A stretch of DNA of 35,709 nucleotides from Chrysochromulina tobinii. Its lineage: Eukaryota. The notes beneath the pieces were generated by a model that was given only the letters and a program-made list of their open reading frames with translations, did no database searches and was not told the DNA's origin. Positions 86-27,100 of this stretch are shown here, piece after piece. The DNA lies in assembly GCA_001275005.1 (NCBI GenBank), contig JWZX01001686.1, positions 1 through 35,709 on the forward strand, in the 5' to 3' direction. Both the position numbers and the translations under genes were made by a program. The first letter of the stretch is position 1, and each line of letters begins with the position of its first letter.

Positions 86-2521
86 ATGCTCGTTTTCCGG
101 CGGGCGGGCGTTTTGGAACTGGATCCAAAAAGGTTTGTACCCAGTTCCAAAGTCAAATGCCCCACCCGCCGCCTCCGTCCCATGCCCATCTCTGAGCCCG
201 CGTGCCCCACGTTGAGCCTCGTGACTTTCGAGCTTCCTGCGTTCACGGACCTCAACGGCAAGAGGCACAACGCTCGATTCTGCTACACGAGTGTAAGCGC
301 GAAGAACGGCGCGGTCCGGTGGGCTTATTCGGGTTCTAGCGTGCAGCGTAAGGAGAAGTTGAGAAAAGCCAATCCGCTCCTCAAAGAGGCGCCGCTGTCG
401 TACCTCCAGCATTTGGAGGCCGACGAGCCCAAGCACTACGCCGAGCTCTTGCATGCGACTTTCGGCACCGCGCCCACCGGCACGATGCAGAAGGTGTTCA
501 GTGCGCTTCTCGCTGAGCACCTCAGCTGCGCAGACAAGCGCAAGCTGGTGCTCGCGCTGCCGCTCGCCGACGTCACGAGCGCGCAAGCACAGGTGCTCAA
601 CCGCTCTGGCGGCGCGCCCGTCGCCCTGAACAAGCCAGCGTCGCTGGCGCGGATGCAGCGCGTCTTTGCCTCGCCCCAGGCCCTGCTCTCGTCGCCGCGC
701 TCCTCGGCGGGCTCCACGCCATCCTCGTTGACTCGCATCGTCGTCGACACTGTGTGGACGGGCGGCGCGGCGGCCGTTGAGGCTGTCAGAGGCCTGACGT
801 CGGTGATCAAGTCCTTGCAAAAGGATATGCGCTCGGCCGCCAAGGCGAGCGAGGCTCGCGACGTCGAGGCCGCGGCCGTGGCTCGGAGCACGAGAGGCGA
901 GCTCTTGGGTGAGTTCGACTCGGTGCGCGAGACCATCGTTTCCGAGGCATGTGCGATCAAGGATGAGGTTGTCGATGCGGCAGCCCTCATCACAGATCAG
1001 CTCGAGGAAGCTGCCGCTGCGGCCAGGATCGAGGCAAGGGAGGCCCAAGCTCGCGCCGCGGAGGCCAGGGCCGAGGCCGAAGCGCGCGCTGGGGAGGCCA
1101 GGGCCGAGGCCGAGGCGCAAGCTAATTATCGCAAGGAGCAACGCGCGGCGCAGCTCGCGGAGAAGAAGGCGCGCCTGGACGCCGAAGCGCGCGCACGGGA
1201 CGCCAACCGAACCATCGCCGGTGTGCTCGTCGACATAAAGCAGGACACAGTCAGTACCAAGGACATCACCCGCGCGGCCGCCGTGCAGGTGATGGAGGCG
1301 GCAGCCAAGATGTCCGAGGCAGCTGGGGTGGTGGCTGGCGTGGCTGAGGACCTCACGGATGCTACCGAGCAGGCGATTGACGCGGCAGCCGCGATGTCGG
1401 CGGCATCCAAAGTGGTGGTTCGCGCGGGTAATGCCGTCAAGGATGCTGCCGAACAGATGGTGTTCTCGATCGACGAGATGACGATCTCGATCGACGACAT
1501 CAAGTCGGGTGAATGGCTCGCCAAGGTCATCAATCCCCTCATTGCAGGTAAGCACATGGTAGACGAGGAGATGCTCCAGGAGGCGCTCGCCAAGAAGAAA
1601 GCCAAGGCGGCATCGTCGTGTGCGCCCGTCGTCCCGGCAGGAGTGTGCAAGTCCTCGCGGACCGCCGCCACTTCGGCACGCGGCAAGGCTCCGGCAGCCT
1701 CGGTCGCACCCTCGACCCGTTCGACCAGGGCGAGCGTGTCAAAGCCTGCGCCGCCGCCCGCTGTCAAGGGCGGCAAGACGGCCAAGGGTGGCAAGGCGGC
1801 CGCAGGCACGATGGCCAACAAGGTCGGCGAGGATCTCGCCCCCTCGGAGGACTGGCTCAAGCGCGTCCAGGCGGCGGGCGAGACCATCCGGATGGTCATC
1901 AACAGCGCCGTGACGAACGACAAGCTCGAGGAGACGCTCGAGGCGCTCGGCGAGGGCATCGTGAAGGCGATCTCTGCGCTTGAGTGCCAGGTCGTGTTCG
2001 CCATCCTAGAGTCCCTCGAGTATGTCTTCGATCAGCTGGGCCCGGCCGTGGGGCCTCTGCTGCTGTGCGGTGCCGCGGCTAAGGACGGCACGGTACTAGA
2101 TGCGCTGCTCAAGGCCGCCGCCAACCCGAAGTCCGCCCTTGTGCGCGAGGCCGCGCAGGCTACTGCCGTGCGCCTCATCAAGATTGCGCCGTCCGAGGAC
2201 GTGCTCAAAGTTGTGCTTCGCGTCGGGCGCAACGAGGCGAGCGCTGCCAAGACGTGCGTGTGTGCGGCGGAGCTCCTCAGCCTCCTTGTCACGCACCTGC
2301 CCAAGCTACCCGCCAAGCTGAGCAATGGTGTGGAACTATGCCTCATCAAGCTCCTCCAAGCGCCTCAAGAGGACGTGCGCGAGGTGGGCGCCAACGCGCT
2401 CATGTGCTTTTATGCGGTTGGCTGCAGCAGCGAAGCGCTCGCCATCATCGACAAGGTGACGGTGGACAATATGCCCCTGCGCAACAAGCTCTTCAAGCAG
2501 CTGGGGACTGACGCAGCATGA
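86..2521 (+). CDS. Intronless protein: unrecognised ~100-aa N-terminal domain + Ala/Glu coiled coil + basic low-complexity linker + C-terminal HEAT/TOG (CLASP-N-like) domain
   Basis: 811-aa ORF with GC3-rich codons; the true start may be ATG 182 (MPISEP). The N-terminal TFELPAF..GKRHNARFCYT..VRWAY..ANPLLKEAPLSYL aligns with the duplicated domain of the 13982 gene. The C-terminus has HEAT-like helices (SALVREAAQAT, LLQAPQEDVREVGANAL) resembling CLASP/TOG, recognised by eye. Confidence 0.75.
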   Translation: MLVFRRAGVLELDPKRFVPSSKVKCPTRRLRPMPISEPACPTLSLVTFELPAFTDLNGKRHNARFCYTSVSAKNGAVRWAYSGSSVQRKEKLRKANPLLKEAPLSYLQHLEADEPKHYAELLHATFGTAPTGTMQKVFSALLAEHLSCADKRKLVLALPLADVTSAQAQVLNRSGGAPVALNKPASLARMQRVFASPQALLSSPRSSAGSTPSSLTRIVVDTVWTGGAAAVEAVRGLTSVIKSLQKDMRSAAKASEARDVEAAAVARSTRGELLGEFDSVRETIVSEACAIKDEVVDAAALITDQLEEAAAAARIEAREAQARAAEARAEAEARAGEARAEAEAQANYRKEQRAAQLAEKKARLDAEARARDANRTIAGVLVDIKQDTVSTKDITRAAAVQVMEAAAKMSEAAGVVAGVAEDLTDATEQAIDAAAAMSAASKVVVRAGNAVKDAAEQMVFSIDEMTISIDDIKSGEWLAKVINPLIAGKHMVDEEMLQEALAKKKAKAASSCAPVVPAGVCKSSRTAATSARGKAPAASVAPSTRSTRASVSKPAPPPAVKGGKTAKGGKAAAGTMANKVGEDLAPSEDWLKRVQAAGETIRMVINSAVTNDKLEETLEALGEGIVKAISALECQVVFAILESLEYVFDQLGPAVGPLLLCGAAAKDGTVLDALLKAAANPKSALVREAAQATAVRLIKIAPSEDVLKVVLRVGRNEASAAKTCVCAAELLSLLVTHLPKLPAKLSNGVELCLIKLLQAPQEDVREVGANALMCFYAVGCSSEALAIIDKVTVDNMPLRNKLFKQLGTDAA

Positions 2522-3069: not shown

Positions 3070-5766
3070 TCAATCAAATTCGCCCCTCGCGAAGAATTTG
3101 AGCCATTCGGATAAAGCTTCGTCCGCGAGCTCGCTAGGTGCGGCTGGGGCTACCAACTGCTCGGCGCCGCACTGCGAGGCGAGCCACCAGAGTTCCATGC
3201 CGTCGCTGATCTCGTCGTTGCCAGGGCCCACACCCGAAAGTTCCCACACGCGCGGCCAGAGGGCAGAGAGCGCCGTGCCGGGCGGCACCACCCGCATCTC
3301 GCTCGCGCTCAGCATGGCCGCGAGCTCCGATCTCGTGAACTGCTCACCACGGCGCGCACGAGAGGCCATCAGGGAGGCCATCAGGGAGGCCATCAGAGGG
3401 GCCATCAGAGGGGCCCTTCAGAGGGGCATTCAGAGAGGCCACCAGAGAGGCCATCAGAGGCTATCATCACCTGCACCACACCGCGAACGAGCACGAGGTC
3501 GGCAGGCTTGATCTGCGGCTCCTGACTGCTGCTGGCTAAGCTGCTGGCTGATTGCATGCTGCTAGCCGGCTGCAGCTTCGCAGTGACGTCACTCGGACTC
3601 ATCAGGAAGACGCCCGAGGTGCCCAACTGCACGCCGCCCAATTCGGCGCGATGGTGCAGCCACACCTGATGAGGGAAGCCATTAAACACCATCAGACGCA
3701 ATCTCAGACGCAATCTCAGACGCAATCTCAGACGCAATCTCAGACGCAATCTCAGACGCTCCTTCAGTGCCACTCCCGCCGCCCAAGACGGCGCCAGGTT
3801 CCGGCCGGTAGCAGCAACTGGGTACGAAGCTCATCAGAGAGGTCATCAGAGAGGTCATCAGAGAGGTCATCAGAGAGGTCATCAGAGAGGTCATCAGAGA
3901 GGTCATCAGAGAGGTAATCAGAGAGGTAATCAGAGAGGTAATCAGAGAGGCACCTGGGTACGAAGCTCGCGGTTGCCGCAATAGAGTGCGCGGCGCTCGG
4001 GTTTGCCTGGTAGCTGAAAGCGCATCACGTTCACAGTCGGCCTGTTGAGCACACAGGCACTGACCACGCCGCGCGCGCCCTCATCCGCCTATGCAAAGGG
4101 GGCGATCAGTGGTGATCAGAGGCGATCAGTGCAGTGGCAATATCAGGGGCAATCGGTAAGCTCATTATGAAAGGCAATCATGAGAGCCCAGCAGAGCCCA
4201 TCAAGCGCGGTACCTGCAGCACGAGCAGGATCGCCTTGTGCAGGAATTGGTCCTCAAGCAAGACACGGTCCGCCGGCCGGCCTGTGACGGGCGACACCGT
4301 CGAGAGCAGCACCGTACCCACCCGAATCGTCGCGCCCATCTCGGCGCCTTGCTGGGCGCCTTGCTGGGCGCTCATCTCGGCGCTCGGCTCGGCCGCGCCC
4401 TCCGTGTCGGCGGTTGGCGTCGCGCTGCCTTGGGCGTTCTCAGCGCGACGCTCGAGCACGGCGCGGTAGTACTCCGCTGCACTCGTAGTAGCCGGCGCTC
4501 GGAGCGTCGTCTTGGGCAGCAGATGGGCGCGCACCCATTCGGTGAGCATCCGGTCGGCGAGGCTGCCTGCGCTCTGGCGCACCTGATGACGGAAGCAATT
4601 AGGAAGCAATTAGGAAGCAATTAGGCTCAGTGATGCTCAGAGGCGCTCAGAAGTCATCCGAGGCGCTCCGCATGCATCAGAGGCCATCAGTCGCGTACAT
4701 CCTCTTCGCGCCCTATGCTCTTCATTAAGCTGGCCCAGGTCCCAATCCCCGTAATGGAGCCCACATTCGGCTCGTTGACCATCGAGACCTCTCCAGGCGG
4801 CGGGAGCTCGCGTGCTTCGCGGAGCATCTCCTTGAGCAGCGTCCCGCTGTCTGCCGCAGCGAGGTACCAGCTCCCACGCTGCTCCAGCTCCATCTGCAGC
4901 TGGCCAGGCGCCCAACCGCTGTAACCAACACACACCCAAAAGTCCGACCGCTTGGCCACCCCTGCCATCACAAGGGCCTTGGCGCTGTCGAGGCTGCAGT
5001 ACGAGACGCCCTTGATCACGCGCGTAGAGACCTGATCAAGGGCGTAGAGTACAATCAATCAATAGAGTACAATAGAGTACAATCAGGTCTCTACAATGTA
5101 CAATAGAGTACAATCAGGTCTCTACAATCAATTGATTGATCACGCGCGTAGAGACCTGATCAATCGCAGGACGGCGGCCATCAGTCGCCATCAGTCGCCA
5201 TCCACGCTCATCAGTCGCAATCCACGCTCATCAGTGGCAATCCTCACCTGATCCACCAGGAAGCCTTCAAGCGCGTGCAGCGCGTTGATCTCGAGCTGTC
5301 CGCGCGCCTTGTCGGCGCCTAGAAAGATGCCGCCCTCGGCCACTTGGCCGTGCCCGCACCACAGGCGCCAGCCGTCCTGCTCGATCGCCGAGGGACGATT
5401 GAGGATGATGCCTTTGGTGAACGTCTCATCGTGCTGAAGAAGGAGCATGACCGACTTGTGGAAGAACTGCTGACGGAGCGCGAAGCCGAAGACCTGCTTC
5501 GTGCCGCCCATGAGGATCGAGCCCTGCTCGATGAGGGGCGTTTCGTAAGCGTAGCTGCCGGCGTAGCTGCCGTTGCTCGCCGCTGGCGTGCCGGATTCTT
5601 GTTCCTGGGCGACCAGTCGCGCGCGCATCTCACGCCAGTCGAGCTCCTCCTCGTTCATCGCGACGGATGCACGTCGTGAGAATATGACCGGAAGTGGCCG
5701 TGAGCTGATGGCCGGACGTGAGCTGATGGCGTGCGCCACCGCTGTGCACGTCATGAAAAAGAGCAT
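3070..5766 (-). CDS. Tandem DUF179 / AlgH-YqgE family protein, probably plastid-targeted (6 exons, ~606 aa)
   Basis: Deduced exons 5766-5248, 5031-4699, 4582-4214, 4088-3954, 3665-3471, 3339-3070, all GT-AG and phase 0. Motifs DWREMRARLV, FHKSVMLLLQH..GIILNRP, GYSGWAPGQLQMEL; a second degenerate domain has FLHKAILLVLQ..CVLNRP. The N-terminus looks like a signal peptide plus Ser/Arg-rich transit peptide. Confidence 0.85.
3361..3460 (-). repeat. Intronic 12-bp tandem repeat (AGAGGCCATCAG)n
   Basis: About 8 imperfect copies inside intron 3470..3340. Confidence 0.9.
3691..3950 (-). repeat. Intronic 12-bp tandem repeats (TCAGACGCAATC)n and (CATCAGAGAGGT)n
   Basis: Two arrays (3691-3760 and 3832-3950) inside intron 3953..3666. 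Confidence 0.9.
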
Positions 5767-6128: not shown

Positions 6129-7622
6129 TCACTTGTGGGCGGCGAACCACTTGCGGTTCCAGTAGATCCAGTAGGCAAAGATGAAAAACATGACGAAGTC
6201 GTCGAGGTCGAGAAGGATCCAGTAGTCGACAACGATATTGTACCCGCACATGCTGCACCACCTCGAAGCAACGGTCGCGGCGACGTCGGCGACCTCCGCC
6301 GCCGCGTCGCATGGCGCATCCGCGCTTGCGACACACGCCGCCATTGAGGGATCGACGGTGCCCGCATCGGTGTTGGAGGTGGGCTCGGTGGCGCACAACT
6401 TAGAGCACCGGGAGGCGTAGAGGAAGAAGGATATGTTGTGCGCGATGACGACGTATACTAAGTAGTGGCACGCGTCATGATACATGCTGAGCGCCGTCGA
6501 GTAGGGCAGCGCGGGCAGCGAGTCCGAGGACGTGTAGTTGATGCTGGTAAGCGTGAGAACGACGGTCAGAAGGAGCGAAAGCCGATTGCCGATTTCAACC
6601 GGCGGGATGAACGTCGACACGCACGCGAGCGCGGCGAAGACGCCCGGACGCAAAATGAAGTTGGTCACGTAATACTGCGGAAATCGACTGATGCGCATGC
6701 GCATCGTAAGAGCCGACTGCTCGCTCGTAGTATTCTCGTTCTCCGAGAGCTCCTCAGAGATGACATTCCACTCGAAGAGGCGTTTCTTGACGTCTGGCTT
6801 TACCTCGAGGATGCCCTCCTTGATGCGCTCCGACTCCACACGCATGTAGGGGTCGCAATCAAGCTCGTACATCTTGTCCTTGTGCTTCTTGGGAAGGAAG
6901 AGTTCGACTCTCAGCTCGTGCGAGTCGTAGGGGAACCCTTCGAAGTTGAAGTCGAGCTGCACGTCCGTCTCGATCAGGCCCGTCAGGACGGCGACGGTGC
7001 GATCGCGATCGCGATCATTGGGCTGCAGAGGCGGGAACCAGATCTCCTCCACTTCGTAATCGTCGTCGTAGACGCTTGTGGCGTCGGACACCCGGAAGAA
7101 CTCCCGCTTGCCCTTGAATTCAAGATTGCCGTTTTGGACGCCCAAGGTCGGGAGCGCTTCGAGCCGCTCGAGCTCTTTCCACGCTTCCTCTTCCGAGTTG
7201 ACCCGTTTGCCTTGTTCTGGCAGGAACTGCAGGGCCTCGTTGCGCGGCCGAAAGATGAGGTGGACGCGAAACACTATCTTCGCCCGCATATTCTTGCAAT
7301 CGATCTTGTTGACGGCGTGCAGCCGGCATGCGACGTAGCACGGCTCCCGCTGACGTTCCATCATATCCCTTAAAAGCTCGTTCGGGGGTGCGCGGCGCCT
7401 CCGGTTTTTAACGACTCGTTGCTCTTGTTGGCGCACGGGCGAGCGTGCAGGCCTCGGCAAGGGCGAGCGTGAAGAGCTGCGAGGCATTAGACACGCTCCT
7501 CGACTCGTTGTTGGGGCACAGGCGAGGGTGAGGAGCGCGCGCTGGCGCGCGACGGCATAGCTCGCAATTGCGAGTGTACAGTAGCGCTCGCATTTGCGAT
7601 GACCGCCTACTGTAGTTTGCAC
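6129..7622 (-). CDS. Cys-less (Pro-loop) pentameric ligand-gated ion channel subunit, ELIC/GLIC-like, copy 1
   Basis: Pro-loop FNFEGFPYDSHEL; pre-M1/M1 RFPQYYVTNFILRP; M2 NRLSLLLTVVLTLT; M2-M3 loop SDSLPALPYST (ELIC has SNILPRLPYTT); M4 near the C-terminus. Start uncertain (7622, 7487 or 7364). Confidence 0.85.
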   Translation of the reverse strand: MQTTVGGHRKCERYCTLAIASYAVARQRALLTLACAPTTSRGACLMPRSSSRSPLPRPARSPVRQQEQRVVKNRRRRAPPNELLRDMMERQREPCYVACRLHAVNKIDCKNMRAKIVFRVHLIFRPRNEALQFLPEQGKRVNSEEEAWKELERLEALPTLGVQNGNLEFKGKREFFRVSDATSVYDDDYEVEEIWFPPLQPNDRDRDRTVAVLTGLIETDVQLDFNFEGFPYDSHELRVELFLPKKHKDKMYELDCDPYMRVESERIKEGILEVKPDVKKRLFEWNVISEELSENENTTSEQSALTMRMRISRFPQYYVTNFILRPGVFAALACVSTFIPPVEIGNRLSLLLTVVLTLTSINYTSSDSLPALPYSTALSMYHDACHYLVYVVIAHNISFFLYASRCSKLCATEPTSNTDAGTVDPSMAACVASADAPCDAAAEVADVAATVASRWCSMCGYNIVVDYWILLDLDDFVMFFIFAYWIYWNRKWFAAHK

Positions 7623-7646
7623 ATGTTATATAAAAATGTAATGTGT

Positions 7647-7677
7647 GTCCCGGCTCCCCCCGGTGTCTTTTTACCGG
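7647..7677 (+). promoter_or_regulatory. Conserved ~31-bp intergenic motif, copy 1
   Basis: GTCCCGGCTCCCCCCGGTGTCTTTTTACCGG between divergently transcribed genes, next to TTATATAAAAA (7626-7636). The repeat is certain; the regulatory role is inferred. Confidence 0.55.
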
Positions 7678-7916
7678 TATGGTAGTGCAGGCACCCATTC
7701 CTTGGCCCATCCGGGGCCCTGTGTGTGAGAGAGCGGTCGTGGCGTTCAATTGAAGTCAAACGATACAAATAACAGATTGGCGCGGCGCGCTTGCTTCCTA
7801 CCCGTAGCTTGAGCTTGCTTGGCGCGCGGGGGCTCCGCAAGTTTCGCCCGGCCGGTCCTGCTGTGCTCCAGTGTGCTCGGCCCACGTTCGCACGGCCTGG
7901 TCTGACTCGTGACTGA

Positions 7917-9711
7917 ATGACTGGTGACCTTGACAATGGAACGCTCGACGTCTCGCTTGTGCACCGGACACGTCGCAGCAATTGGTTCGTCTACGTGGCC
8001 TTTCTCTTTCCGGCGCTAGCGGGCTTCCTTTTCGGCTACGACATCGGCGGAGCGTCCGGAGCAGTCCGCAGCCTGGACGTGAAGAGCAATGCGACGAGTG
8101 GCATTCCGCTGCACGACATCGAAAACGCGCTCTACACCTCAGCCTCGCTCATGGGCGCGACGCTCGGCTCCATCCTCGTCTTTTGGATAGGTGAGCCTCT
8201 CGGCCGCCGGCGCGAGCTCATGTGTGGCTCACTGCTGTACGCCGTGGGCGCGCTCGTGTCCGGCCTCGGGCCCGGCAGCGCCGCGACGGTCGTGACCGGC
8301 CGCGCGGTGTACGGTCTTGGGATTGCCTTCTCGATGCACTCGGCGCCCGTGTACATCAGCGAGATGGCGCCCGCCGACAAGCGCGGTCTGCTCGTCTCGT
8401 TGAAAGAGGGCTTCATCGTGCTTGGCATTCTCATGGGGTTTGGGGCGACGGCGATCGCCGAGGACGTGCTGGACGAAGCGACGGTGTACCGCGCCATCTG
8501 GCTCCCGACCAGCGCGATTGCGTGCGTCATCTTCATCGGCATGTCGCTCATGCCGGAATCCGCTCGCTGGCTGCTGCTCCGTGGCGACCCCTCCGACGTG
8601 AGTCAGTCCCAAGCAACCATCCACGCTTACCCCTCGCCTACCATATTTGGAACGAGCGCCACCGGGAGCCACGGTCTCCAACGCTCGACACTCCTCGCTG
8701 AGGAGGCGACGGGGCGATCACCTTCGAGGACCGCAGCCGCGGCGGCGCTGCGCCGCTTCCGCCGCGGGGCTTCCGAGGCGGAGATCGAGGCCGAGATTGC
8801 CGAGATCGAGATGACACTCTCCGATGTGCGAGCCTCCTCCAGGGCGTCTCCCGTGCTTGCCCCCCTACAGTACTGGCTCTGAGAGCCACTGACCTGAGCC
8901 ACTGATCGAGTTCACACTGATCGAGTTCACACTGATCGTGTTCACACTGATCGAGTTCACACTGATCGAGTTCACACTGATCGAGTTCACGCGATCGAAG
9001 GTGGTCGGCGCGTCCAAGAGCGGCTGGCACGAGGTGCTGCGCGCGCGCAAGGCGCTCCTCGCCGGCCTCGGACTGATCACCCTGCAGCAGCTGACTGGAC
9101 AGCCGTCGGTCCTCTACTACCAAGAAGCCATCTTCGATGATGCGGGCTTCGACCACTTTGCAGCGTACGCCGCCGTCATCATCGGCAGCGCCAAGCTGGT
9201 CGCGACGCTCGTCACCGTCTTCTACGTGGACCGTTTCGGGCGGCGGCCGTTACTCTTCGCGGGGATCACCATGATGCTTGGCGCGCTGGCCGTGCTCAGC
9301 ACGGCGTTCGCCTTGGGAGAGCCCTCGGGGACTGACGCGAAGCAGATCACCCTGCCCCCGGGCTGGCCGCCCGTCGTCGTGGCGGCCCTCGTGCTGTACG
9401 TGTGCGGCTACCAGGTGGGCTTCGGCCCGATTGGATGGCTCATCATCTCGGAGGTCTTCCCGCTCAGATCGCGCTCCCGCGCGCTCTCGCTCGCGGTGAT
9501 CACGAACTTTGCATGCAATCTGGGCATGACCTTTGGACTGGTGCCGATGCAGGTCGCGCTCGACGATCTGGTGCCCGGCTACGGGCAGGCGATCCTGTTC
9601 GGCATCTACGGCGCCCTGTGCGTCTTCTCTCTCGGTTTCGTCTTCTGCTGCGTGCCCGAGACGAAAGGGAAGACGCTCGAAGAGATTGAGGAGATGTTCA
9701 ACCGACGCTGA
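7917..9711 (+). CDS. MFS sugar porter (D-xylose/H+ symporter-like, VGT-type), 2 exons, ~539 aa
   Basis: Exons 7917-8825 and 9001-9711 (GTGCGA...AAG, phase 0). Motifs FLFGYDIG, EPLGRRREL, PVYISEMAP..RG, PESARWL, QQLTGQPSVLYY, DRFGRRPLL, ISEVFP, VPETKGKTLEEI. Confidence 0.93.
8901..8990 (+). repeat. Intronic 15-bp tandem repeat (ACTGATCGAGTTCAC) x6
   Basis: Near-perfect copies directly before the acceptor at 9000. Confidence 0.95.
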
Positions 9712-9793: not shown

Positions 9794-10175
9794 GTGTTTA
9801 CGCGGTCGGAGGTGCGTATACGCAGAAACTTGTGTATACGCGAGGGGGTACGTATACGCACCCGCTGTGTATACGTACTACCGCTCGCGTATACGCACCT
9901 ACCTGCGTATATGCACCCGGGTGCGTGTACGCACCCGCTGCGTAAATGCACCCAGCGCTCGCGTATACACACCCACCCGCGTATACGCACCGGGTGCGTG
10001 TACGCAGGTAGGTGCGTATACGCACCCAGCGCTCGCGTAAACGCACTATTTCGCGTATACGCACCCGGGTGCGTAAACACACCTCTTGCATATACGCACC
10101 CAGCGTTCGCGTAAACGCGCTTTCTCGCGTATACACACCTGGGTGCGCATTCACGCACCCCCTGCGTTTACGCAG
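9794..10175. repeat. Array of ~21 palindromic GCGTATACGC-like units with 74-bp higher-order period
   Basis: Cores at 9814, 9832, 9850, 9867, 9887, 9905, 9923, 9940, 9961, 9979, 9996, 10014, 10035, 10053, 10071, 10088, 10109, 10127, 10145, 10164, plus a degenerate one at 9794. Confidence 0.9.
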
Positions 10176-10405: not shown

Positions 10406-11976
10406 ATGCAACTACGTCGCGACGAGGCTGAGCCGAGGGTGACCACGGTGATCTGGGTCGGCGGCACCTCGGCTCTGGCGCGCACCTACTTCGACGAGGT
10501 TCACCCGACCGTCCGCGATCGCTTGCACATTGTGGTCGCCGCACCGGCGCTGCCGTCGTGGACTCTGCCCAAAGTTGGCGTGAGCTTCGTGGCACTCGAC
10601 CTCCTTGACGTGAAGAGCGTCGACTCGTTTTTCTCGCGGCCGGAGCTACTCGACACATATCGCACGGGGCCGAGCGTCATGATCATCGGCGTGCGCCTTT
10701 CCCTCGTGTGGGCCGGCTCTCGCCAGAGCACGCTGGCGGCCCACCTGGGGCGCCTGATCTCGCGTGCAGCCGTTGCGGGCTGCCTGGGCGTGGTGCACAT
10801 CTCGTCGGTGGCCGTCGCCGACCACGTGGTCTCGCAACACAATGTCAGCGAGTCCGCACCGCTCCCCGCCCTCGACGCCTATCATAGCGACTATGATCGC
10901 TTCAAGAGGCTGAGTGAGGTGATCGTAGATGACGAGTGTACGAAAGCCAACGAGAGGGCCGCGCTGAGCGGGGAGACGCGAATGATGGTGTGGACGCACC
11001 TTCGCATCTCGGGCATCTTCTCCAATGACCCCGCGTGCATCCAGTGCACGGCGGTGCGCAACCAGGCCTACATCTCAGCTTACTCGAGCACGTGCATCGA
11101 TTTCAACTCCTCAGCCAACGTCTCCCACGCCATCACGCTTCTCGTCGAGCGGATCGTGAGAGTGGTCACGGCTCTTCCGGCCAGCGCGGACCCGAGCGTG
11201 CCCGTCGAGTGTGCAGCCAATCTGGATGGTCGTCGGGTGCAGCGTGTCTACTACTACACGCGCGCCACGACGGCGCCTGTGCCCTACGGCGCCCTCGTGG
11301 CCGACTACCGGTGATTACAATATGCTCTGCTGATGGCGCCTGATGGCGCCTGATGGCGTCTGATGACCTCTGATGACCTCTGATGGCCTCGGATGGCCTC
11401 TCTTATGACCTCGGATGGCCTCTCTTATGACCTCTGATGGCCTCTGAGTTCAGGTCTGCTCACGGCATCCAGTACGGCGTGTGGTTGCCCGAGATCCTCT
11501 ACCTCGGCTTTGTGCGCTGCGTACAAGCTCTGTGCGCGCTCTGCCGCTGGCTCGCCCTCGCGCGGTCGGTGGCGTACCTCCTCGCAGTCTCAGTAAGTGC
11601 CTCTGATGATACCTCTGATGATGCCTCTGACTGCCTCTGATGACCTCTGATGACCTCTGATGACCTCTGATGACCCCTGATAGCCTCTGATGACCCCTGA
11701 TAGCCTCTGATGACCTCTGATGACCGCTGATGACCGCTGATGACCTCTGATGTCCCCTGACTGCCTCTGATGGCCTCGGATTGCACACGTGGACAACTAC
11801 AGGTCGCGGATCACACGTTCGACTGCTCACGCTTCCGCGAGGACTTCCCCGAGATGCAAGCACGCGAGGAGTCCATCCGCGAGTGCTTCGTGCGCATCCG
11901 ACAACGGCAGGAGGAGGCGCTGGCGCTGTCGCGGGCGGATGCACTAAGCCGATCGGACACGGCCAAGTTGGGCTGA
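10406..11976 (+). CDS. NAD-dependent epimerase/dehydratase-like (atypical extended SDR), 3 exons, ~405 aa
   Basis: Exons 10406-11310, 11454-11592, 11803-11976. Degenerate Rossmann VIWVGGTSALA, VVHISSVAV, catalytic YDRFK (YxxxK), C-terminal HTFDCSRFREDF. Confidence 0.8.
11328..11780 (+). repeat. Intronic decamer arrays (CTGATGACCT/CTGATGGCCT)n in two introns
   Basis: Arrays at 11328-11447 and 11600-11780, separated by exon 2. Confidence 0.9.
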
Positions 11977-13592: not shown

Positions 13593-13623
13593 CGGTTCAA
13601 AAACACCGGGGGAGCCGGGACAC
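13593..13623 (-). promoter_or_regulatory. Conserved ~31-bp intergenic motif, copy 2 (reverse orientation)
   Basis: Reverse complement reads GTGTCCCGGCTCCCCCGGTGTTTTTGAACCG; lies between divergent genes. Confidence 0.55.
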
Positions 13624-13981
13624 CAAGCTCGCAATACGCGGGCGAAGGGGCGATTCTGCATTCTCCGCCCCTGAGCCCTGTTCTCCGCTTCACATCGACT
13701 CACGCGGATCACCGCACAGCGAACCTCACAGCCCGATGCCCACAACCCACCCGACCCACCAACGCACACGCAGGTGGCAGGACCACGCCACGACCCCGGA
13801 GCCGACTGAACCCGCGGCCGAAGAAGAGGCCGCCCGCTGTGAACCCGACCCTGTTTTACCGTCCCCGTGGCCGTTTGTATGTCCCCTGTCCGCGCGTGCA
13901 ATTCGATTGCACACGAATGCTCAAAATTTGCATTTTTGCCCATGCGGGCAAATTTTTTGCACTCGTTCAATCCGCGGGCCC

Positions 13982-16805
13982 ATGTCGAGCCGCACGACTT
14001 TTGACATTCCAGCTTTCGACCTCGACGGGAAGAAGCACAATGCGCGACTTGCCTACACGATCGCGAAGCACGGCGTGGTCAGGTGGGCCCATACACACGG
14101 CAATGCGCAGCGCCAAGAGTTGCTCGCCCGAGCCAATCCGTTCCTAGAGGAGGCGCCGGTGTCGTACCTCCGATGGCTGGAGGACAACGAGCGCGAGTAC
14201 TTCAAAAAGATTTTGTGCGCTAGCTTTGGCAACGGCAAGATGCAAACAGTGTTCAGGGCGCATCTTACTGAGCACCTTGCAGACAAGCGCGAGCTGGTGC
14301 AACCCGCTGTGCCGCCCAACATCTTCGACGATGTCGAGCTGCCGGCCGAGGAGGTCGGGGCGGGCGCGGACGGCGCGGCCGCTGTTGAGGGCGTGCCAAA
14401 AATTGCCAGCCGTGTGCAAGAGTGCAAATCTCTGTCGAGCCGCACGACTTTTGACATTCCAGCTTTCGACCTCGACGGGAAGAAGCACAATGCCCGACTT
14501 GCCTACACGATCGCGAAGCACGGCGTGGTCAGGTGGGCCCATACACACGGCAATGCGCAGCGCCAAGAGATGCTAGCCAAAGCCAATCCGTTCCTAGAGG
14601 AGGCGCCGGTGTCGTACCTCCAATGGCTGGAGGACAACGAGCGCCTCGACGAGCGCGAGTACTTCAAAAAGATCTTGTGCGCTAGCTTTGGCAACGGCAA
14701 GATGCAAACAGTGTTCAGGGCGCATCTTACTGAGCACCTTGCAGACAAGCGCGAGCTGGTGCAACCCGCTGTGCCGCCCAACATCTTCGACGACGTCGAG
14801 CTGCCGGCCGAGGAGGTCGGGGCGGGCGAGGCCGCTGCTGAGGGCGTGACGCCGCCCACCCCGGTGCCGTCCGCGCCGTCGTCCCACCTCTCGCCCGGCA
14901 CCGTGGAGCGTGTCGCCGATGCCATGGTCCAAGGCATGGTGGCACGCATCACGCCGCTCCACGAGCGCACGCACTCGGCCGTCCGCGACACGCACTCGGC
15001 CGTCCTCCAGGGGACCGCCGAGGTCAAGTCGGAAGTCAAGAACAGCGCCGCCGAGGTGAAGGCCGAAGTCAAGGCCGGCGCCACCGAGGTGAAGGCGCTC
15101 ATTTTGCACAGCCAGGAGAAGGCGGTCAAGGGCTTCGCCGCTCTGGCAATGCAAAATGCGCAGTCGCTTGCGCAGATGATGCAGGCGCTCGGCCTGGTCA
15201 CAGAGCACGTGACCGAGGCCGTGACCGAGGCCGCAAAGGCCGCCGTCGAGGCCACCGAGCGCGTGGGCGCCGTGGCTGAGAAGACGCTGACCGAGGCGTC
15301 GGGCGCACGCGCCGCCGCCGTCGGTGCTGAGGCAGCGGCGACCGAGGGCCTCTGCGTCACGCGGGAGGTGCTGGCGATCGTCAAGGAGATGGAGACTCGT
15401 CTGGATGCGCTCGCGTTCGAAAAGGACAAGAAGGAGGCGATCGTGGGGCTGCTCGTGAACGCCCCCGTGGCGCGAGAGCTCTCGGGCTGCAATAAGATCA
15501 TCGGCACGTGCGTCGATCTCATCCAAGGCCTGCCCTCTGTCGAGGAGAGCAGGGCGGCGGATGCCGAGGAGGCGCTCCGGGCGGAAGCGGCCGCCAAGGC
15601 CGAGGCTGAGGCGGCGGCTGCGGCCAAGCGCACTGCCAGCCTCCGCGGAGGCTCCGCGGGCCTCGCGCGTGCGCCGCCCAACGCGTCGAACACCCCAAAG
15701 ATTGTCAGCAAGAAGCCCAAGGCGGCGCCGGCGTCTGGCCGTGGCGGCACGAAGGCGGCGCTGACGGTGGCAGTAGAGACGATCGCCGCCCCCGAGTCCG
15801 ACTTCCTCAACGCCTCGGACAAGCAGGTGGCGCTGCGCGAGCTCATCACTTTGCTGCCGATGGTGCCCAACGAGAATCTCCTCGAGCTGCTCGCGCCCAA
15901 GGGCTACGTGACGCTAGCCCTCGTGTGCGCCCTCTCCTACAAAAAGTCGGCCGTCGTCACCACCGCCGCCGAGGTGCGTGCTCACGCGCCATCCCGCTGC
16001 ACGCGCGCGCCGCTCCACGCGCCGCCCGCTCTCGTCCGCTCAACTCGCTATGCCATGGCTGCAGGTCCTCGAGAAGCTGCTCGGCCTGCTGGAGTGCAAG
16101 CAGGCGGCGCAGCTGCTCGTCCAGGGCACGATCCGCACCGTGCTGCAGCAGTGCATGCGCGCCAAGGACGTCGCCGTGTGGCGCGCCTGCGGGCTGCTCG
16201 CGCCCTCGATGATGGCCAAGGCGCCTTCCTTCCCGGCGCTCGACATCGCCCTCGATGCGACCAGGCATGATCCGAAGGACCCTGTGGCGAAGCATCCGGG
16301 CTGCCGTGAGGCGGCGGGCATGGCGCTGTGCGCCGTGCTCCGAGTCGGCCCAAAGCTCGACTTCTACAAACAGGCATGCCCACCCTCACCCTCGCCCGCC
16401 CTCTCTGCCCTCTCCGCCTTACTCTCCGCCTCCAGCGCTGCTGCTGCTCTCTCGCCACCCAGCTGACCGCGCACGCATTCACTGGCACGCTTCCCATCAC
16501 AGCTCATCCACCAGTCAAATTTGGACGCCATCGTGAGCGCGATCGCGCGTCTCGCCGACTCGCCGGGCAAGCCGGCCACGTCGCATGCCAACACGCCCGA
16601 CGTGCGCCTTCAGGGCGTCGAATGCTGCGTGGCACTGCATACCTTCAGCCCGCAGGGCGCTAAGTCCGTGATCATGTGCCTCGCCCACAATGGCGCCATA
16701 TGCGACCGCCTGAAGGAGGCGCTCGCCATCATCGACAAGGTGACGGTGGACAAGATGCCTCTGCGCAATCAGCTCCTGAAGCAGCTGGGACCTGACGCAG
16801 CATGA
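13982..16805 (+). CDS. Paralogue of the 86..2521 gene with the N-terminal domain duplicated, coiled coil and divergent HEAT/TOG-like C-terminus (3 exons, ~863 aa)
   Basis: Exons 13982-15973, 16065-16373, 16515-16805; intron 1 is GT-AG and intron 2 is GC-AG. Splicing joins ORFs 13736, 15978 and 16521 in frame. It ends ALAIIDKVTVDKMPLRNQLLKQLGPDAA, like the paralogue. Confidence 0.78.
13983..14845 (+). repeat. 450-bp in-frame tandem duplication of the N-terminal domain
   Basis: TGTCGAGCCGCACGACTTTTGACATTCC starts at 13983 and 14433. The copies are nearly identical; the second has a 9-bp insertion (ERLDERE). Confidence 0.97.
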
Positions 16806-17802: not shown

Positions 17803-19428
17803 ATGCATCGCGCCGCGACGTCGCCAGCGCGCGAGAGCCCGGCGACGAGATACTCTCTCGACCCCAGGTACCTGAAACAGGTGCAGGCCGCACACGGTGA
17901 GCCTGAGGCACAGCCTGCGGCACAGCCTGCGGCACAAATGCCTTGGCTGGCCGACAACGTCGCTACGGGGCTCACAGGGGCACCCGTTGCTCCTGTGGTC
18001 GTCGCTCAGCGCAGCGCGACGTCGCCAGCGCTGCAGCGCATCCATTCCACCACATCCAGTGCCGGGTCCCAAGAGCCGGCGCCGTCGAGTCGCAACCCTT
18101 CCGTCCCCGGGTCCCGAGAGCCCCCGGACGATCTTTTGTGGGATATGATGATGCAACGTCAGCGGGAGCCGTGCTACGTGGCCTGCCGGCTGTGGGGCGT
18201 GAACGAGATCGACTTCAAGAGAATGCGGGCGGTTATGGTGTTTCGCGTCCACCTCATCTTTCGGCCGCGCAAGGAGGCCCTGCAGTTCTTGCCACCAAAA
18301 GGCAAACGCGTCAACTCGGAAGAGGAAGCGTGGAAAGAGCTCGAGAAGATCGAGGCGCTCCCGACCTTGAGCGTCCTCAACGGCAAACCGGTTTTCACAA
18401 GCAAGCAGGAGTTCTTCCGGATGTTCGACGCCAAAAGCGTCTACGACGACACTAACGAAGTGGAGATCTGGTTCCCGCCTCTGCAGCCCAATGATGAGCG
18501 CGAGGGAACCATCGCCGTCCTGACGGGCCAGATGGAGGTGACGGACGTTCAGCTCGACTTCAACTTCGAAGAGTTCCCCTTCGACGCACACGAGCTCTGT
18601 GTCAAGCTCTTCCTTCCCAAGAAGCACAAGGACAAGATGTACGAGCTCCATTGCGACCCCAACATGCGTGTGAAGTCGGAGAGCATCAAGGCCAAGGAGG
18701 AGGGCGGCCAAGGCATCCTCGAGGTAAAGCCAGACGTTAAGAAAAGCCTCTTCGAGTGGGAGATTATCCCGGAGAACACCGAGCTAGTCAGGAACGAGAA
18801 TGCTACGGGCGAGCAGTCGGGTGTTACGATGCGCATTGGCATCCGTCGCATTCCGCAGTATTACGTGACCAAGTTCCTTATCCGTCCGGGCGTGATCGCC
18901 GCGCTTGCGTGCGTGTCGACGTTCATCCTGTCCGACAATATTGGCGATCGGCTCGCGCTCACGTTCACCATCCTTCTCACGCTTACCGGCATCAACTACA
19001 CGTCCTCGGACTCGCTGCCCGCGCTGCCCTACTCGACGGCGCTCGACAAGTATCACGAGGCGTGCCACTACTTAGTGTACGGCGTCATCGCGCACAATGT
19101 AATCTTCTTCCTCTACGCCTTCCGGTGCTCTAAGTCATGCGCCGCCGAGCCCACCACCAACACCGCTGCGGGCACCGTCGATCCCACGATGGCGGCGTGT
19201 ATCGCAAGCGCGGATGCGCCATGCGCCGCGGCGGCGGAGGTCGCCGACGTCGCCGCGACCGTTGCCTCGAGGTGGTGCAGCATGTGCGGGTACAATATCG
19301 TTGTCGACTACTGGATCCTTCTCGACCTCGACGACTTCGTCATGTCTTTCATCTTCGCCTACTGGATCTACTGGAACGTCAAGTGGTTCGCCGCCCACAA
19401 CTTCAAGTGGTTCGGCACTCACAAGTGA
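17803..19428 (+). CDS. Cys-less (Pro-loop) pentameric ligand-gated ion channel subunit, copy 2
   Basis: FNFEEFPFDAHEL Pro-loop, RRIPQYYVTKFLIRP, GDRLALTFTILLTLT, SDSLPALPYSTALDKY; collinear with 6129..7622. First ATG in the ORF is 17803 (alternatives 17938 or ~18145). Confidence 0.87.
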   Translation: MHRAATSPARESPATRYSLDPRYLKQVQAAHGEPEAQPAAQPAAQMPWLADNVATGLTGAPVAPVVVAQRSATSPALQRIHSTTSSAGSQEPAPSSRNPSVPGSREPPDDLLWDMMMQRQREPCYVACRLWGVNEIDFKRMRAVMVFRVHLIFRPRKEALQFLPPKGKRVNSEEEAWKELEKIEALPTLSVLNGKPVFTSKQEFFRMFDAKSVYDDTNEVEIWFPPLQPNDEREGTIAVLTGQMEVTDVQLDFNFEEFPFDAHELCVKLFLPKKHKDKMYELHCDPNMRVKSESIKAKEEGGQGILEVKPDVKKSLFEWEIIPENTELVRNENATGEQSGVTMRIGIRRIPQYYVTKFLIRPGVIAALACVSTFILSDNIGDRLALTFTILLTLTGINYTSSDSLPALPYSTALDKYHEACHYLVYGVIAHNVIFFLYAFRCSKSCAAEPTTNTAAGTVDPTMAACIASADAPCAAAAEVADVAATVASRWCSMCGYNIVVDYWILLDLDDFVMSFIFAYWIYWNVKWFAAHNFKWFGTHK

Positions 19429-23930: not shown

Positions 23931-23961
23931 GTCCCGGCTCCCCCCGGTGTCTTTGAACCGG
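23931..23961 (+). promoter_or_regulatory. Conserved ~31-bp intergenic motif, copy 3
   Basis: GTCCCGGCTCCCCCCGGTGTCTTTGAACCGG between divergent genes. Confidence 0.55.
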
Positions 23962-24126
23962 AGACAAACGGAACCGCGGTTCGGAGAATTGCATCCGGTT
24001 CCCTGCATCGGGCACTCATCGGGCTCGTGCTTGAGGGCACGCGGTCGACGACGCCGATCATCCCGCCGGACGCCCGACCGCCACCGAAACACGTTGGCCG
24101 ATTGAGCACCTGCGTGGGCAATAGCG

Positions 24127-27100
24127 ATGGGGAAGAAGGATGAGCGTAAGAAAAAGGAGGAGGAGCGTCAAATGTCTCGGGAACTCGACGCCGACCTGGT
24201 CGATGAGAGTCTCGCTCGCCAGGCTGCGAAGCTGAGCACGAAGCCGGTGATCGACAAAGGCGTGGAGGAGCTCTTCGAGAAGAAGCTGACCAAGGAGGAG
24301 AAGAAGGAGCTGGCGGCCAAGAAGAAGGCGGAGCGAGAAGCACGCAAGGCGGCAGCAGGGGCAGATGCTGGGGGCGACTGTGACGACGACGACGAAGCTG
24401 GGGCACCCGGCACCACGGATCCGGCGTCGGCGGCCAAGGCGAAGACTACGAAGGCGAAGCCCGAGACGAAGGCGGATAAGGTGCTGCGCGAGGCCGCGCT
24501 TCTCGACCAGGAGCTTGAGGAGGCGCGCGTGCGCGCCGTGCGCCTTCGCAACGCCGAGGGTGCTTACCTCGGCCAGATCGAGGCGACGGGATTCTCGTTA
24601 GCCAACCCGGGCGGCGGCCCCGATCTGCTCGAGCGTGCGAGCTACACGCTGCAGCGAGGGCGGTCGTACGGTCTCGTGGGCCGCAACGGGTGCGGCAAGA
24701 GCACGTTACTCAAGGCGATGGCCTCGCGGCGTGTGGGGAACATCCCGCCGGCTGTGACGGTGCACTACGTGTCTCAAGAGGTCGTCCTGACCGAGGCGAC
24801 GCTCAAGATGACGCCCGTGGAGGTGGTGGTGAACGCGGACGTGGAGCGTCGGCTCTTGCTCGAGGAGCGTGACGCGCTGCTGGCGGCGGAGGCACGCGGA
24901 GAGCCCATCGATGGCGAGCGGCTGCAGGGGCCCGGTGGTGTGCTGGAGCAACTTCAGCTGATGGACGAGGAGACGGTCGAGAGGTGAGTGCGTCTGAGTG
25001 CATCGGAGTGCATCGGAGTGCATCTGAGTGCATCTGAGTGCGTCTGAGTGCATCTGAGTGCGTCTGAGTGCATCTGAGTGCGTCTGAGTGCATCTGAGTG
25101 CGTCTGAGTGCATCTGAGTGCATCTGAGTTCATCCGAGTGCATCGGAGTGCATCGGAGTGCGACTAGTTGCCTCGGTTGCCCTCAGATGCCCTCCCTGGT
25201 TGCATCTGATGGTCTCCCTCATCAGCTGATGCCCTCCCTGATCGCTCCCCTTCCTCAGGCGCGCCACGACGCTGCTGGTCAACCTCGGCTTCTCTGACGA
25301 GCTGCGCGCCCGTCCGATGGCGGCCCTCTCCGGCGGCTGGCGTGTTCGCACATGCCTCGCCGCGGCGATCTTCGGCAAGCCGGACATGTTGCTGCTCGAT
25401 GAGCCAACGAATCACCTGTCGATCGGAGCGGTGCTCTGGCTCGCTCGGGAGCTCAAGACGAACCCTACCTGGTGAGTGCCGTTGATTGCCGTTGATTGCC
25501 TCGGATGGCCTCGGATGGCCCCTGCTTGCGTCTGAGTGCGTCTGAAGACCTGACTGATGACGTCTGATTGCACGCCTCATCAGAGAGGATAGGATCATCG
25601 TCACTGATGACGTCTGATTGCGCGCCTCATCAGGGAGGATAGGATCATCGTCACTGATGACGTCTGATTGCGCGCCTCATCAGGGAGGATAGGATCATCG
25701 TCGTGGTGAGTCACGATCGCTTCTTCCTTGACTCGGTCTGCGGCGACATCTTGCACGTCTCGGGCGTCGCCAAGCGCCTCTCACAGTCCCACGGCTCATA
25801 CTCCACCTGGGCCCAGCGCCGTGCCGAGCAGCAGAAGGCCTTCGCGCGAGCAGTCGAGCTCCGGCGTGCCGAGATCGCCGAGCTCCGTGAGTACGCGGGG
25901 CATGGCTTCAAGTACGGCGGCTCGGGCTCGCAGATCGCCAAGATGCAGATGAAGGCTAAGCAGGTGCATCTGGAGGAGGAGTACCTCTGAGTGCCTATGA
26001 TGGGCTCTGATTGCCTCTGATTGCCTCTGATTGCATCTGGAGGAGTACCTCTGAGTACCTCTGATTGCCTCTGATTGCCTCTGATTGCATCTGGAGGAGG
26101 AGTACCTCTGATTGCCTCTGATTGCCTCTGATTGCCTCTGATTGCCTCTGATTGCCTCTGATTGCCTCTGATTGCCTCTGACTGACTATGATAGGCTCTG
26201 ATTGCCTCCGAGTGCCTCTGAGTTGCTGTGATTGGTTCCCTCCTCAGGCCGATAAGCTCGAGGAGGAGGAGGAGGCGGAGAAGGAGGAGCTGGCCGCGCT
26301 GCAGGAGGACGTCGAGCTCCCCCTCAATCTCAAGGTACGTTGATTACCACTGATTACCACTGATTACCACTGATTGCCACTGATGACGTCGAGCTCCCCC
26401 TCAATCTCAAGGTACGTGGATTGCCACTGATGACCTGCCTGGCATGCAAGTGCTCACCACGGCGCTGCGGGCTCCCCTGAATCTCAAGTCGGGAGGCCAG
26501 ATCGATTGCCCCTGATGACCTGCCTGGCATGCAAGTGCTCACCACGGCGCTGTGGCTCCCCTGACTCTCAAGTCGGGAGGCCAGATCGACGGCTTTTGTG
26601 TGCAGCTGCGCGGCGTCGCATTCGGGTACCCGGGCTCCGACGCGCCTCTCTTCCGCAACGCCGAGCTGTCGGTGGACACGAAGTCGCGCATTGTGCTGCT
26701 CGGCGAGAATGGGAACGGCAAGTCGACCCTCTGATGGGCTCTGATGGCCACTGATGGCCACTGATGGCCACTGATGGCCACTGATGGGCTCGGATGGGCT
26801 CTGATGGGCTCTGATGGGCTCTGATGGGCTCTGATTGCCTCTGTTGGCCTCTTGATGGCCTCTTGATGGCCTCTGATGGCCTCTGATTGCCTCTGATGGC
26901 CTCTGCGTGCATGTGATCGCCTCCATCATCAGGCAAGTCGACCCTCGTGAAGCTGATGACGGGATCACTCGAGCCAACCGAGGGCGAGATCAAGCGCAAC
27001 GCTAAAGTGCGGATCGCCATCGTCAATCAGCACCACGCCGACCAGCTCAACCTCGAGATGACGCCCATTGAGTTCATGAAGCATAAGGTGAGCGCTCGTC

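What the first reader, a model, noticed from the sequence alone, without database searches (positions are those of the whole stretch)
5012..5247. Intron containing both direct and inverted copies of its own acceptor junction
Seen: TTGATCACGCGCGTAGAGACCTGATCAA (5012-5039, spanning the acceptor) is repeated exactly at 5136-5163. Between them are two copies of ATCAGGTCTCTAC (5082-5094, 5113-5125), the reverse complement of the same junction, mixed with AATAGAGTAC decamers. Established: patchworks of direct and inverted locally templated snippets are typical of polymerase-theta end joining or template switching. Inference: iterative templated repair synthesis generates or expands these introns.
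Basis: partly seen in the sequence, partly recalled or inferred. Interest (0 to 1): 0.7.

Follow-up and report, generated by a model that had tools for sequence, protein, structure and literature searches.

The report
DNA-repair scar that moved splice site
An algal intron carries a 124-base patch of forward and backward copies of its own end, absent from a close relative and different in another strain; it is likely a scar of error-prone DNA repair that lengthened an existing intron and shifted its splice site, a known kind of mutation that may be unusually frequent in these introns.

Summary
The stretch is a 216-nt GT-AG intron (minus strand, 5247-5032) in a DUF179 gene of a haptophyte; RNA contigs of three runs skip it and DNA contigs cover the patchwork. 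A relative's protein reads through a 72-nt version of the intron that lacks the 124-nt patch, and a second strain shares the filler but has another acceptor end. So the patch was added to an existing intron, as a junction duplication with a locally copied filler, and splicing uses the downstream copy. That strain's other two introns differ from the window by the same kind of insertion. In the window, direct copies of flanking exon occur in 6 of 18 introns, inverted copies in 1 of 18. Best reading: iterative templated synthesis at a break (SD-MMEJ/Pol theta type); fork template switching is not excluded and Pol theta could not be looked for. 'Expands' is supported, 'generates' is not shown. The scan noted direct junction copies ('mirages') and inverted repair scars before in other genomes, not at this locus. 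Known kind of mutation, new lineage.

The parts
3070..5766 (-). Host gene: DUF179/AlgH-like protein, 606 aa, five introns (start codon and introns 3-5 inferred from the reading frame)
   Evidence: Pfam PF02622 in both exons beside the intron; open frame after splicing; haptophyte homologue P0011
5032..5247 (-). Intron 1, 216 nt, GT-AG
   Evidence: RNA contigs skip 216 nt in X13, X14, X15; frame restored
4699..5031 (-). Exon 2; its first 26 nt are the template of the direct and inverted copies
5012..5039 (-). Downstream copy of the 28-nt junction; holds the acceptor in use (AG at 5033-5032)
5136..5167 (-). Upstream copy of the junction in the older intron context (AG at 5157-5156), skipped in the RNA contigs; 5136-5167 matches the acceptor end of L002 over 32 nt
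   Evidence: P0001 read-through ends here; blastn 32 of 32; its use would add 124 nt with stops
5040..5135 (.). 96-nt AT-rich filler (36% GC; mean of window introns 57%) between the two copies
5113..5125 (+). Inverted 13-nt copy of the acceptor junction (fold-back product)
5082..5094 (+). Second inverted copy, carried by the 31-nt tandem duplication
5067..5128 (.). Perfect 31-nt tandem duplication inside the filler
   Evidence: loop contig depth
5125..5138 (.). 14-nt palindrome without spacer, at the start of the fold-back
   Evidence: palindromes of 14 nt or more occur 13 times in the window, so weak alone
5006..5045 (.). 13-bp perfect inverted repeat (5006-5018 / 5033-5045, 14-nt loop) across the used acceptor; 7 bp before the insertion; the two bases 5040-5041 differ from L002 and match the exon arm
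5168..5247 (-). Older 5' part of the intron, of CTGATG-type 10- and 20-nt units; one 20-nt unit (5189-5208) is missing in P0001
   Evidence: look-alike contigs elsewhere in the same runs (table 8)
5246..5253 (.). 8-nt repeat at the donor, also at the acceptor (5030-5037): GATCAG|GT on the coding strand
   Evidence: ('both' = 8)

Best explanation
The 124-base patch is a duplication of the intron's acceptor junction with a locally copied filler, and it was likely made by repeated rounds of priming, short synthesis and release during end-joining repair of a break (SD-MMEJ / polymerase-theta type). Shown: an allele without the patch exists; the filler holds a 13-nt inverted copy of the junction, a fold-back palindrome and self-copies; splicing uses the downstream copy; another strain has a different acceptor end. 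Inferred steps, on the coding strand: (1) a 72-92-nt intron had a 7-bp inverted repeat (two TGATCA palindromes 20 nt apart) across its acceptor; (2) DNA broke, or was nicked on both strands, about 20 nt into the exon; (3) the free end was extended by a few slipped bases, folded back and copied the junction backwards, skipping 10 nt that hold an 8-nt palindrome; (4) it re-primed several times on its own product, giving the 10-nt units and, then or later, the 31-nt duplication; (5) it re-annealed upstream of the acceptor through a 3-nt match and restored the exon, leaving a 32-nt duplication; (6) later template switches between the hairpin arms gave the window's end (two bases copied from the exon arm) and L002's end (12 nt more). 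The allele survived because the last copy is a working acceptor. The patch likely has no function.
For: Allele without the patch: P0001 has a 24-aa insert, absent from the 18 aligned homologues that cover the site, that equals the translation of window 5247-5209 plus 5188-5156 with one residue changed. P0001 is the more distant allele (4 aa differences in exon 2 against 1 for L002), so gain is the parsimonious direction. L002 shares the filler core, and its acceptor end matches the upstream copy over 32 nt. The filler parses into 12 pieces from local context and itself; shuffles need 25.6 on average, at least 22 in 1000; 2 of 440 foreign contexts do as well. No other contig of X1 or X10 lies on the filler and its 10-mer is unique in the window. 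All 3 of 3 introns that L002 touches differ from the window by duplication with templated pieces: +39 nt with a copy of the exon end (0 of 443 foreign contexts parse as well) and +64 nt with a 39-nt AT-rich filler. [quoted passage not shown]
Against: No enzyme was identified; the same product can come from fork template switching. The patch (92-96 nt of filler) is far longer than the usual templated insertion (<25 bp, PMC12426944 section 6). Much of the filler's low complexity is self-copying (foreign contexts average 14.6 pieces against 12), and pieces of 4-8 nt cannot be assigned singly. The L002 intron-3 filler is only weakly tied to its context (4 of 442 without self-copying, 50 of 442 with it). 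The 7-bp seed hairpin is not rare (29 of 400 random sites reach 7 bp). The patch-free allele is known only from a predicted protein; a later deletion between the direct copies is not excluded. L002 starts inside the filler, so its upstream half was not seen.
Confidence: 0.6

Rival explanations
1. Replication-fork template switching (quasi-palindrome switching, FoSTeS/MMBIR type) at the hairpin made the patch in one or several steps without end joining.
For: The window's two-base difference from L002 turns an 11-of-13 inverted repeat into a perfect 13-bp one, the arm homogenisation described for template switching (PMC8604942, abstract only). The structure has no deletion of flanking sequence. 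This likely explains the late changes even if the main patch came from a break.
Against: At least six short re-primings within 100 nt, most on the new strand itself, fit a non-processive repair polymerase better (inference; PMC2943611 passages). Two other L002 insertions have no such flanking hairpin across a junction.
Confidence: 0.28
2. Plain tandem duplication by slippage or unequal crossing-over, as proposed for amphioxus 'mirage' repeats, with the inverted pieces by chance.
For: Direct junction copies are common here (6 of 18 introns) and introns are full of 10-50-nt tandem arrays; mirages are the same kind of direct copy (PMC3087553, passages). It can account for the 31-nt and 20-nt duplications.
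Against: The copies are not head to tail but separated by 96 new bases; two distinct 13-nt inverted matches exceed all controls (0 of 440 and 0 of 17).
Confidence: 0.05
3. A mobile element (short retrotransposon tail or excision footprint) inserted with a long target-site duplication.
For: A direct repeat flanks AT-rich sequence with 10-nt units; the genome has repeat-flanked introns (15 nt at 26718-26932; note e1-2577349).
Against: No other contig of two whole DNA runs lies on the filler at 88%; its longest pieces are local copies; 28-32 nt exceeds usual target-site duplications (recalled).
Confidence: 0.04
4. The patchwork is an assembly artefact.
For: No long reads seen; X1, X10 and L001 may share the window's source; no single contig spans the 31-nt duplication.
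Against: Every 31-letter word is in read-derived contigs at flank-like depth in two runs; all 156 sampled words are held by 12 DNA runs; a strain with 6 differences in exon 2 shares the filler.
Confidence: 0.02

Closest known systems
Templated insertions of synthesis-dependent MMEJ / polymerase-theta end joining (Drosophila, C. elegans, plants, mammals; PMC2943611, PMC5728401, PMC12426944)
   Same: Insertion made of overlapping direct and inverted copies of sequence within about 30 nt, joined at 1-7-nt matches; a repeat that is both direct and inverted near the site; self-copies from several rounds.
   Different: Filler of 92-96 nt is longer than typical; comes with a 28-32-nt flank duplication and no deletion; natural allele in a haptophyte, enzyme unknown.
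[quoted passage not shown]
   Same: Copies of a splice junction inside the intron, with normal splicing kept; proposed there as a route to intron gain. Several other introns of this window look like true mirages (25472-25683, 27711-27889).
   Different: Here only two direct copies, not head to tail, with inverted copies and new filler between them; inverted copies are not mentioned in the passages read.
Template switching between short imperfect inverted repeats (arm homogenisation; PMC8604942)
   Same: Two adjacent bases at 5040-5041 changed so that the arms match over 13 bp.
   Different: Accounts for the late two-base change and L002's 12-nt addition, not by itself for the 124-nt gain.
Intron gain by break repair or tandem duplication, with short direct repeats at new introns (Daphnia, Drosophila; PMC2809761)
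   Same: The intron has an 8-nt repeat over both splice sites and seems absent from more distant homologues.
   Different: That concerns the older 72-92-nt intron; the patch came later and created no new intron.

Membership tests
SD-MMEJ / Pol theta templated insertion | Net insertion against a known prior allele | tested here: met
   P0001 read-through lacks the 124 nt; protein evidence only
SD-MMEJ / Pol theta templated insertion | Inserted sequence copies flanking DNA as direct or inverted repeats, beyond chance | tested here: met
   13-nt inverted and 8-nt direct matches; 0 of 440 foreign contexts reach 12 nt
SD-MMEJ / Pol theta templated insertion | Short primer matches at the switch points | tested here: inconclusive
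   Overlaps of 1-7 nt are visible at the large switches, but matches of 1-4 nt are expected by chance and were not tested against a control
SD-MMEJ / Pol theta templated insertion | Patchwork from several rounds of synthesis | tested here: met
   12-piece parse against at least 22 for shuffles
SD-MMEJ / Pol theta templated insertion | Origin at a double-strand break and dependence on Pol theta | not testable with these tools
   No genome held; searches gave no statement on Pol theta in haptophytes (PMC6523293 passages name it only for mammals)
Mirage repeats | Copy spans an exon-intron boundary and lies in the intron | tested here: met
Mirage repeats | Head-to-tail minisatellite array of the unit | tested here: not met
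   Two copies 124 nt apart with 96 unrelated-register bases between
Mirage repeats | Normal splicing kept | tested here: met
   Only the 216-nt skip is seen in 3 of 3 RNA runs laid; contigs drop rare forms
Introner / mobile-element intron | Many similar copies elsewhere in the genome | tested here: not met
   Filler: no other contig in X1 or X10. Only 34-38-nt pieces of the older repeat part have look-alikes at under 90%
Intron gained by duplication or break repair | Intron absent from outgroups and flanked by a short direct repeat | tested here: inconclusive
   8-nt repeat present; homologues are continuous at the site but most may be transcripts

The most novel reading that the evidence does not exclude
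In this haptophyte lineage, templated break repair is a main engine of intron evolution: it inserts duplication-plus-filler patches so often that all three comparable introns differ between strains about 2% apart, moves splice sites outward by copying junctions, lets inverted copies pair with and hide the stale acceptor, and may have created the intron itself at the same small hairpin (8-nt duplication of GATCAG|GT).
Probability: 0.2. Interest if true: 0.72.

Novelty: new member of a known kind. Interest (0 to 1): 0.4.

Why it matters
The single patch is a likely neutral scar of a known type. Its value is the allelic series: no patch, patch, and patch with another end, plus two more duplication-with-filler insertions in the neighbouring introns of one other strain. 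If that rate holds genome-wide, strains of this alga give a direct way to measure how repair-type synthesis lengthens introns, shifts acceptors and perhaps makes new introns, which is still an open question. It also raises a splicing question: how the last of several identical acceptor copies is chosen.

Tried and rejected
Genome-wide dot plots and a Pol theta search: not possible, no genome held and the records behind L001 and L002 are not held. Wild DNA runs X19, X20, X21 gave no cover of the intron's acceptor half: no evidence either way. Exact search for the 28-nt junction in viral and prokaryotic collections: 0 and 0 matches. L001 is identical to the window over 8333 nt and may share its source, so it was not counted. 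X13 is another strain (5 differences in exon 2), so its splice does not show which acceptor the window allele uses; X14 and X15 show no differences. Masking of the old acceptor by the inverted copies: predicted in nascent-RNA folds (AG unpaired at most 0.11 in 4 of 4 truncations), but the used acceptor also sits in a 13-bp hairpin, no control without the inverted copies was folded, and three ABC-F introns appear to skip upstream acceptor copies with no inverted copy (from the reading frame only), so it is kept only in the novel case. A hairpin hot spot at junctions: no other junction of 18 introns has an inverted repeat above 7 bp. A candidate intron at 8598-8736 was dropped before the counts because the frame is open without it. 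Targeting of junctions: not needed, since short introns and selection against exon insertions could give the direct copies (rough reasoning, not computed). Paper searches on haptophyte intron repeats listed nothing on nuclear intron patchworks; PMC4580454 mentions introns once (passages). PMC4020087 is not held; it is known to me only through PMC7407515 (passages). No supplements were read; those of haptophyte genome papers may describe intron repeats.

Full report
Observation. The two 28-nt copies (5012-5039, 5136-5163) are identical and the two 13-mers (5082-5094, 5113-5125) are the reverse complement of 5024-5036. The two 13-mers lie in a perfect 31-nt tandem duplication, so they count as one inversion. 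The matches exceed chance: none of 440 other 80-nt windows shares 12 nt with the filler (maximum 10), against 13 for its own context.

Host gene and intron. The stretch is intron 1 of a minus-strand DUF179/AlgH-like gene (five introns give an open 606-aa frame). The only named homologue with a species is from Prymnesium polylepis, so the organism is taken to be a haptophyte. RNA contigs of all three RNA runs laid skip exactly 216 nt with GT-AG ends; X14 and X15 show no difference from the window, X13 is another strain. The downstream junction copy is therefore the acceptor in use; using the upstream one would add 124 nt with stop codons. Contigs cannot exclude minor use. DNA contigs of X1 and X10 cover all words of the patch, with the loop of the 31-nt duplication at flank-like depth. 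They may be the window's source, and no long reads were available.

Three alleles. P0001 is a gene call that reads through the intron: it has 24 extra residues at this site, absent from the 18 homologues that cover it among 19 aligned (20 of 46 hits were aligned). These residues equal the translation of window 5247-5209 plus 5188-5156, with one change. That allele has a 72-nt intron ending at the upstream copy, with no patch. L002, with 6 differences in the 333 nt of exon 2, begins inside the filler and shares about 40 nt of it, but ends differently: its acceptor end matches the upstream copy over 32 nt and carries 12 more bases, where the window has two bases that match the exon arm. P0001 differs from the window at 4 residues of exon 2, L002 at 1, so the patch was most simply gained after the P0001 lineage split, as a 32-nt duplication with about 92 nt of filler, and its end changed again afterwards. 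A later loss in P0001 by deletion between the copies is not excluded.

How it was likely made. On the coding strand the filler begins right after the exon arm of a 7-bp inverted repeat, runs through the zero-spacer palindrome, continues as a backward copy of the junction with 10 nt skipped, then repeats its own pieces, and returns to the exon start and the old acceptor. It parses into 12 pieces; 1000 shuffles need at least 22, and 2 of 440 foreign contexts reach 12, so most of the economy is self-copying and the local signal rests on the 13-nt and 8-nt pieces. This is the anatomy described for synthesis-dependent MMEJ: snap-back gives inverted repeats, loop-out gives direct repeats, several rounds give complex insertions, and these fall in polQ mutants (PMC2943611 and PMC5728401, passages; PMC12426944, section 6). 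The filler is longer than the usual <25 bp. The late two-base change fits template switching between imperfect inverted repeats (PMC8604942, abstract). Break repair and fork switching cannot be told apart from sequence; I put them at 0.60 and 0.28.

How general. Among 18 introns modelled in five genes of the window (two confirmed by RNA, the rest from open frames), 6 hold a direct copy of 14 nt or more of their flanking exon, while swapped flanks give at most 12; only this one holds an inverted copy of 12 nt or more. So direct, mirage-like copies (PMC3087553, passages) are common and the inverted patchwork is the exception. Between strains, however, duplication with filler recurs: L002's intron 2 has 39 nt more, a 20-nt duplication around a copy of the exon end and donor, and its intron 3 has 64 nt more, a 25-nt duplication around a 39-nt AT-rich filler. 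The first is strongly local (0 of 443 foreign contexts parse as well), the second weakly (4 of 442 without self-copying, 50 of 442 with it). That is 3 of 3 introns in one 1233-nt contig with 25 mismatches to the window: a small sample from one gene, with direction unknown for the last two.

Origin of the intron itself. An 8-nt repeat covers both splice sites, and more distant homologues, some apparently from genomic contigs, are continuous here, which suggests a lineage-specific gain with a short duplication, as reported for Daphnia and Drosophila (PMC2809761, passages). The older part consists of the genome's common CTGATG-type units, not of junction copies. Nothing here shows that the patchwork process made it.

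Function. Folding predicts that the inverted copy pairs with the old acceptor in nascent RNA (region z about -5), but the used acceptor is also in a hairpin, and three ABC-F introns appear to skip upstream acceptor copies without inverted copies. A neutral scar is the simpler reading.

Novelty and verdict. Searches for haptophyte intron repeats and for Pol theta in haptophytes (listings, with passages of PMC6523293 and PMC4580454) found no description of this; the library lacks most subscription papers and no supplements were read. The scan's notes report mirages and inverted repair scars in animal genomes and a repeat-flanked intron in this genome, nothing at this locus. Verdict: real, a new example of a known kind of mutation, interest 0.4; the possible high rate across strains is the part worth following.

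Noticed in passing
window 24984-28277 (+), ABC-F-like gene, 8 introns: Several introns carry direct copies of their own junctions: three 50-nt units with the acceptor (25553-25702), donor and acceptor copies in 26335-26572 (27 and 17 nt), an acceptor copy in 28017-28277 (21 nt), and a 30-nt array that starts at the donor of 27711-27889. The frame is open when the last acceptor copy is used; other choices were not tested with RNA.
   Followed up: partly
window 26718-26932 (+): GC-AG intron bracketed by a perfect 15-nt direct repeat, like the repeat-flanked intron noted earlier in this genome (e1-2577349).
   Followed up: partly
window 3666-3953 (-): Intron 4 of the DUF179 gene holds a 15-nt copy of the upstream exon end after ten 12-nt units, then a second 12-nt array: looks like two insertions in series.
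   Followed up: no
L002 405-464 and 956-1044: Strain-specific duplications with filler in introns 2 (+39 nt) and 3 (+64 nt); the second starts beside a TCATGA palindrome and has an internal 14-nt imperfect inverted repeat.
   Followed up: yes
window introns, e.g. 11330-11447, 25984-26234, 26728-26905, 28020-28153: 10-nt arrays of CCTCTGATGG type fill many introns; their core CTGATG is the reverse complement of the frequent acceptor end CATCAG and resembles a branch-point motif (resemblance recalled, not tested).
   Followed up: no
window 86-2521 and 13736-16805: Two related genes that share an N-terminal stretch and near-identical 3' ends and downstream DNA; the second has an internal repeat of about 420 nt (seen by eye).
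   Followed up: no
window 6129-7487 (-) and 17803-19428 (+): Two intronless paralogues in opposite orientation, ion-channel-like by eye (not tested).
   Followed up: no
window 9814-10174: Intergenic array of a 74-nt unit rich in palindromes (GCGTATACGC, CACCCGGGTG), up to 18 nt long.
   Followed up: no
window 13596-13623, 7646-7680, 23931-23962: A short motif (TCCCGGCTCCCCCCGGTGTCTTT-like) recurs at gene-block edges in both orientations; could be the end of a mobile element (seen by eye).
   Followed up: no
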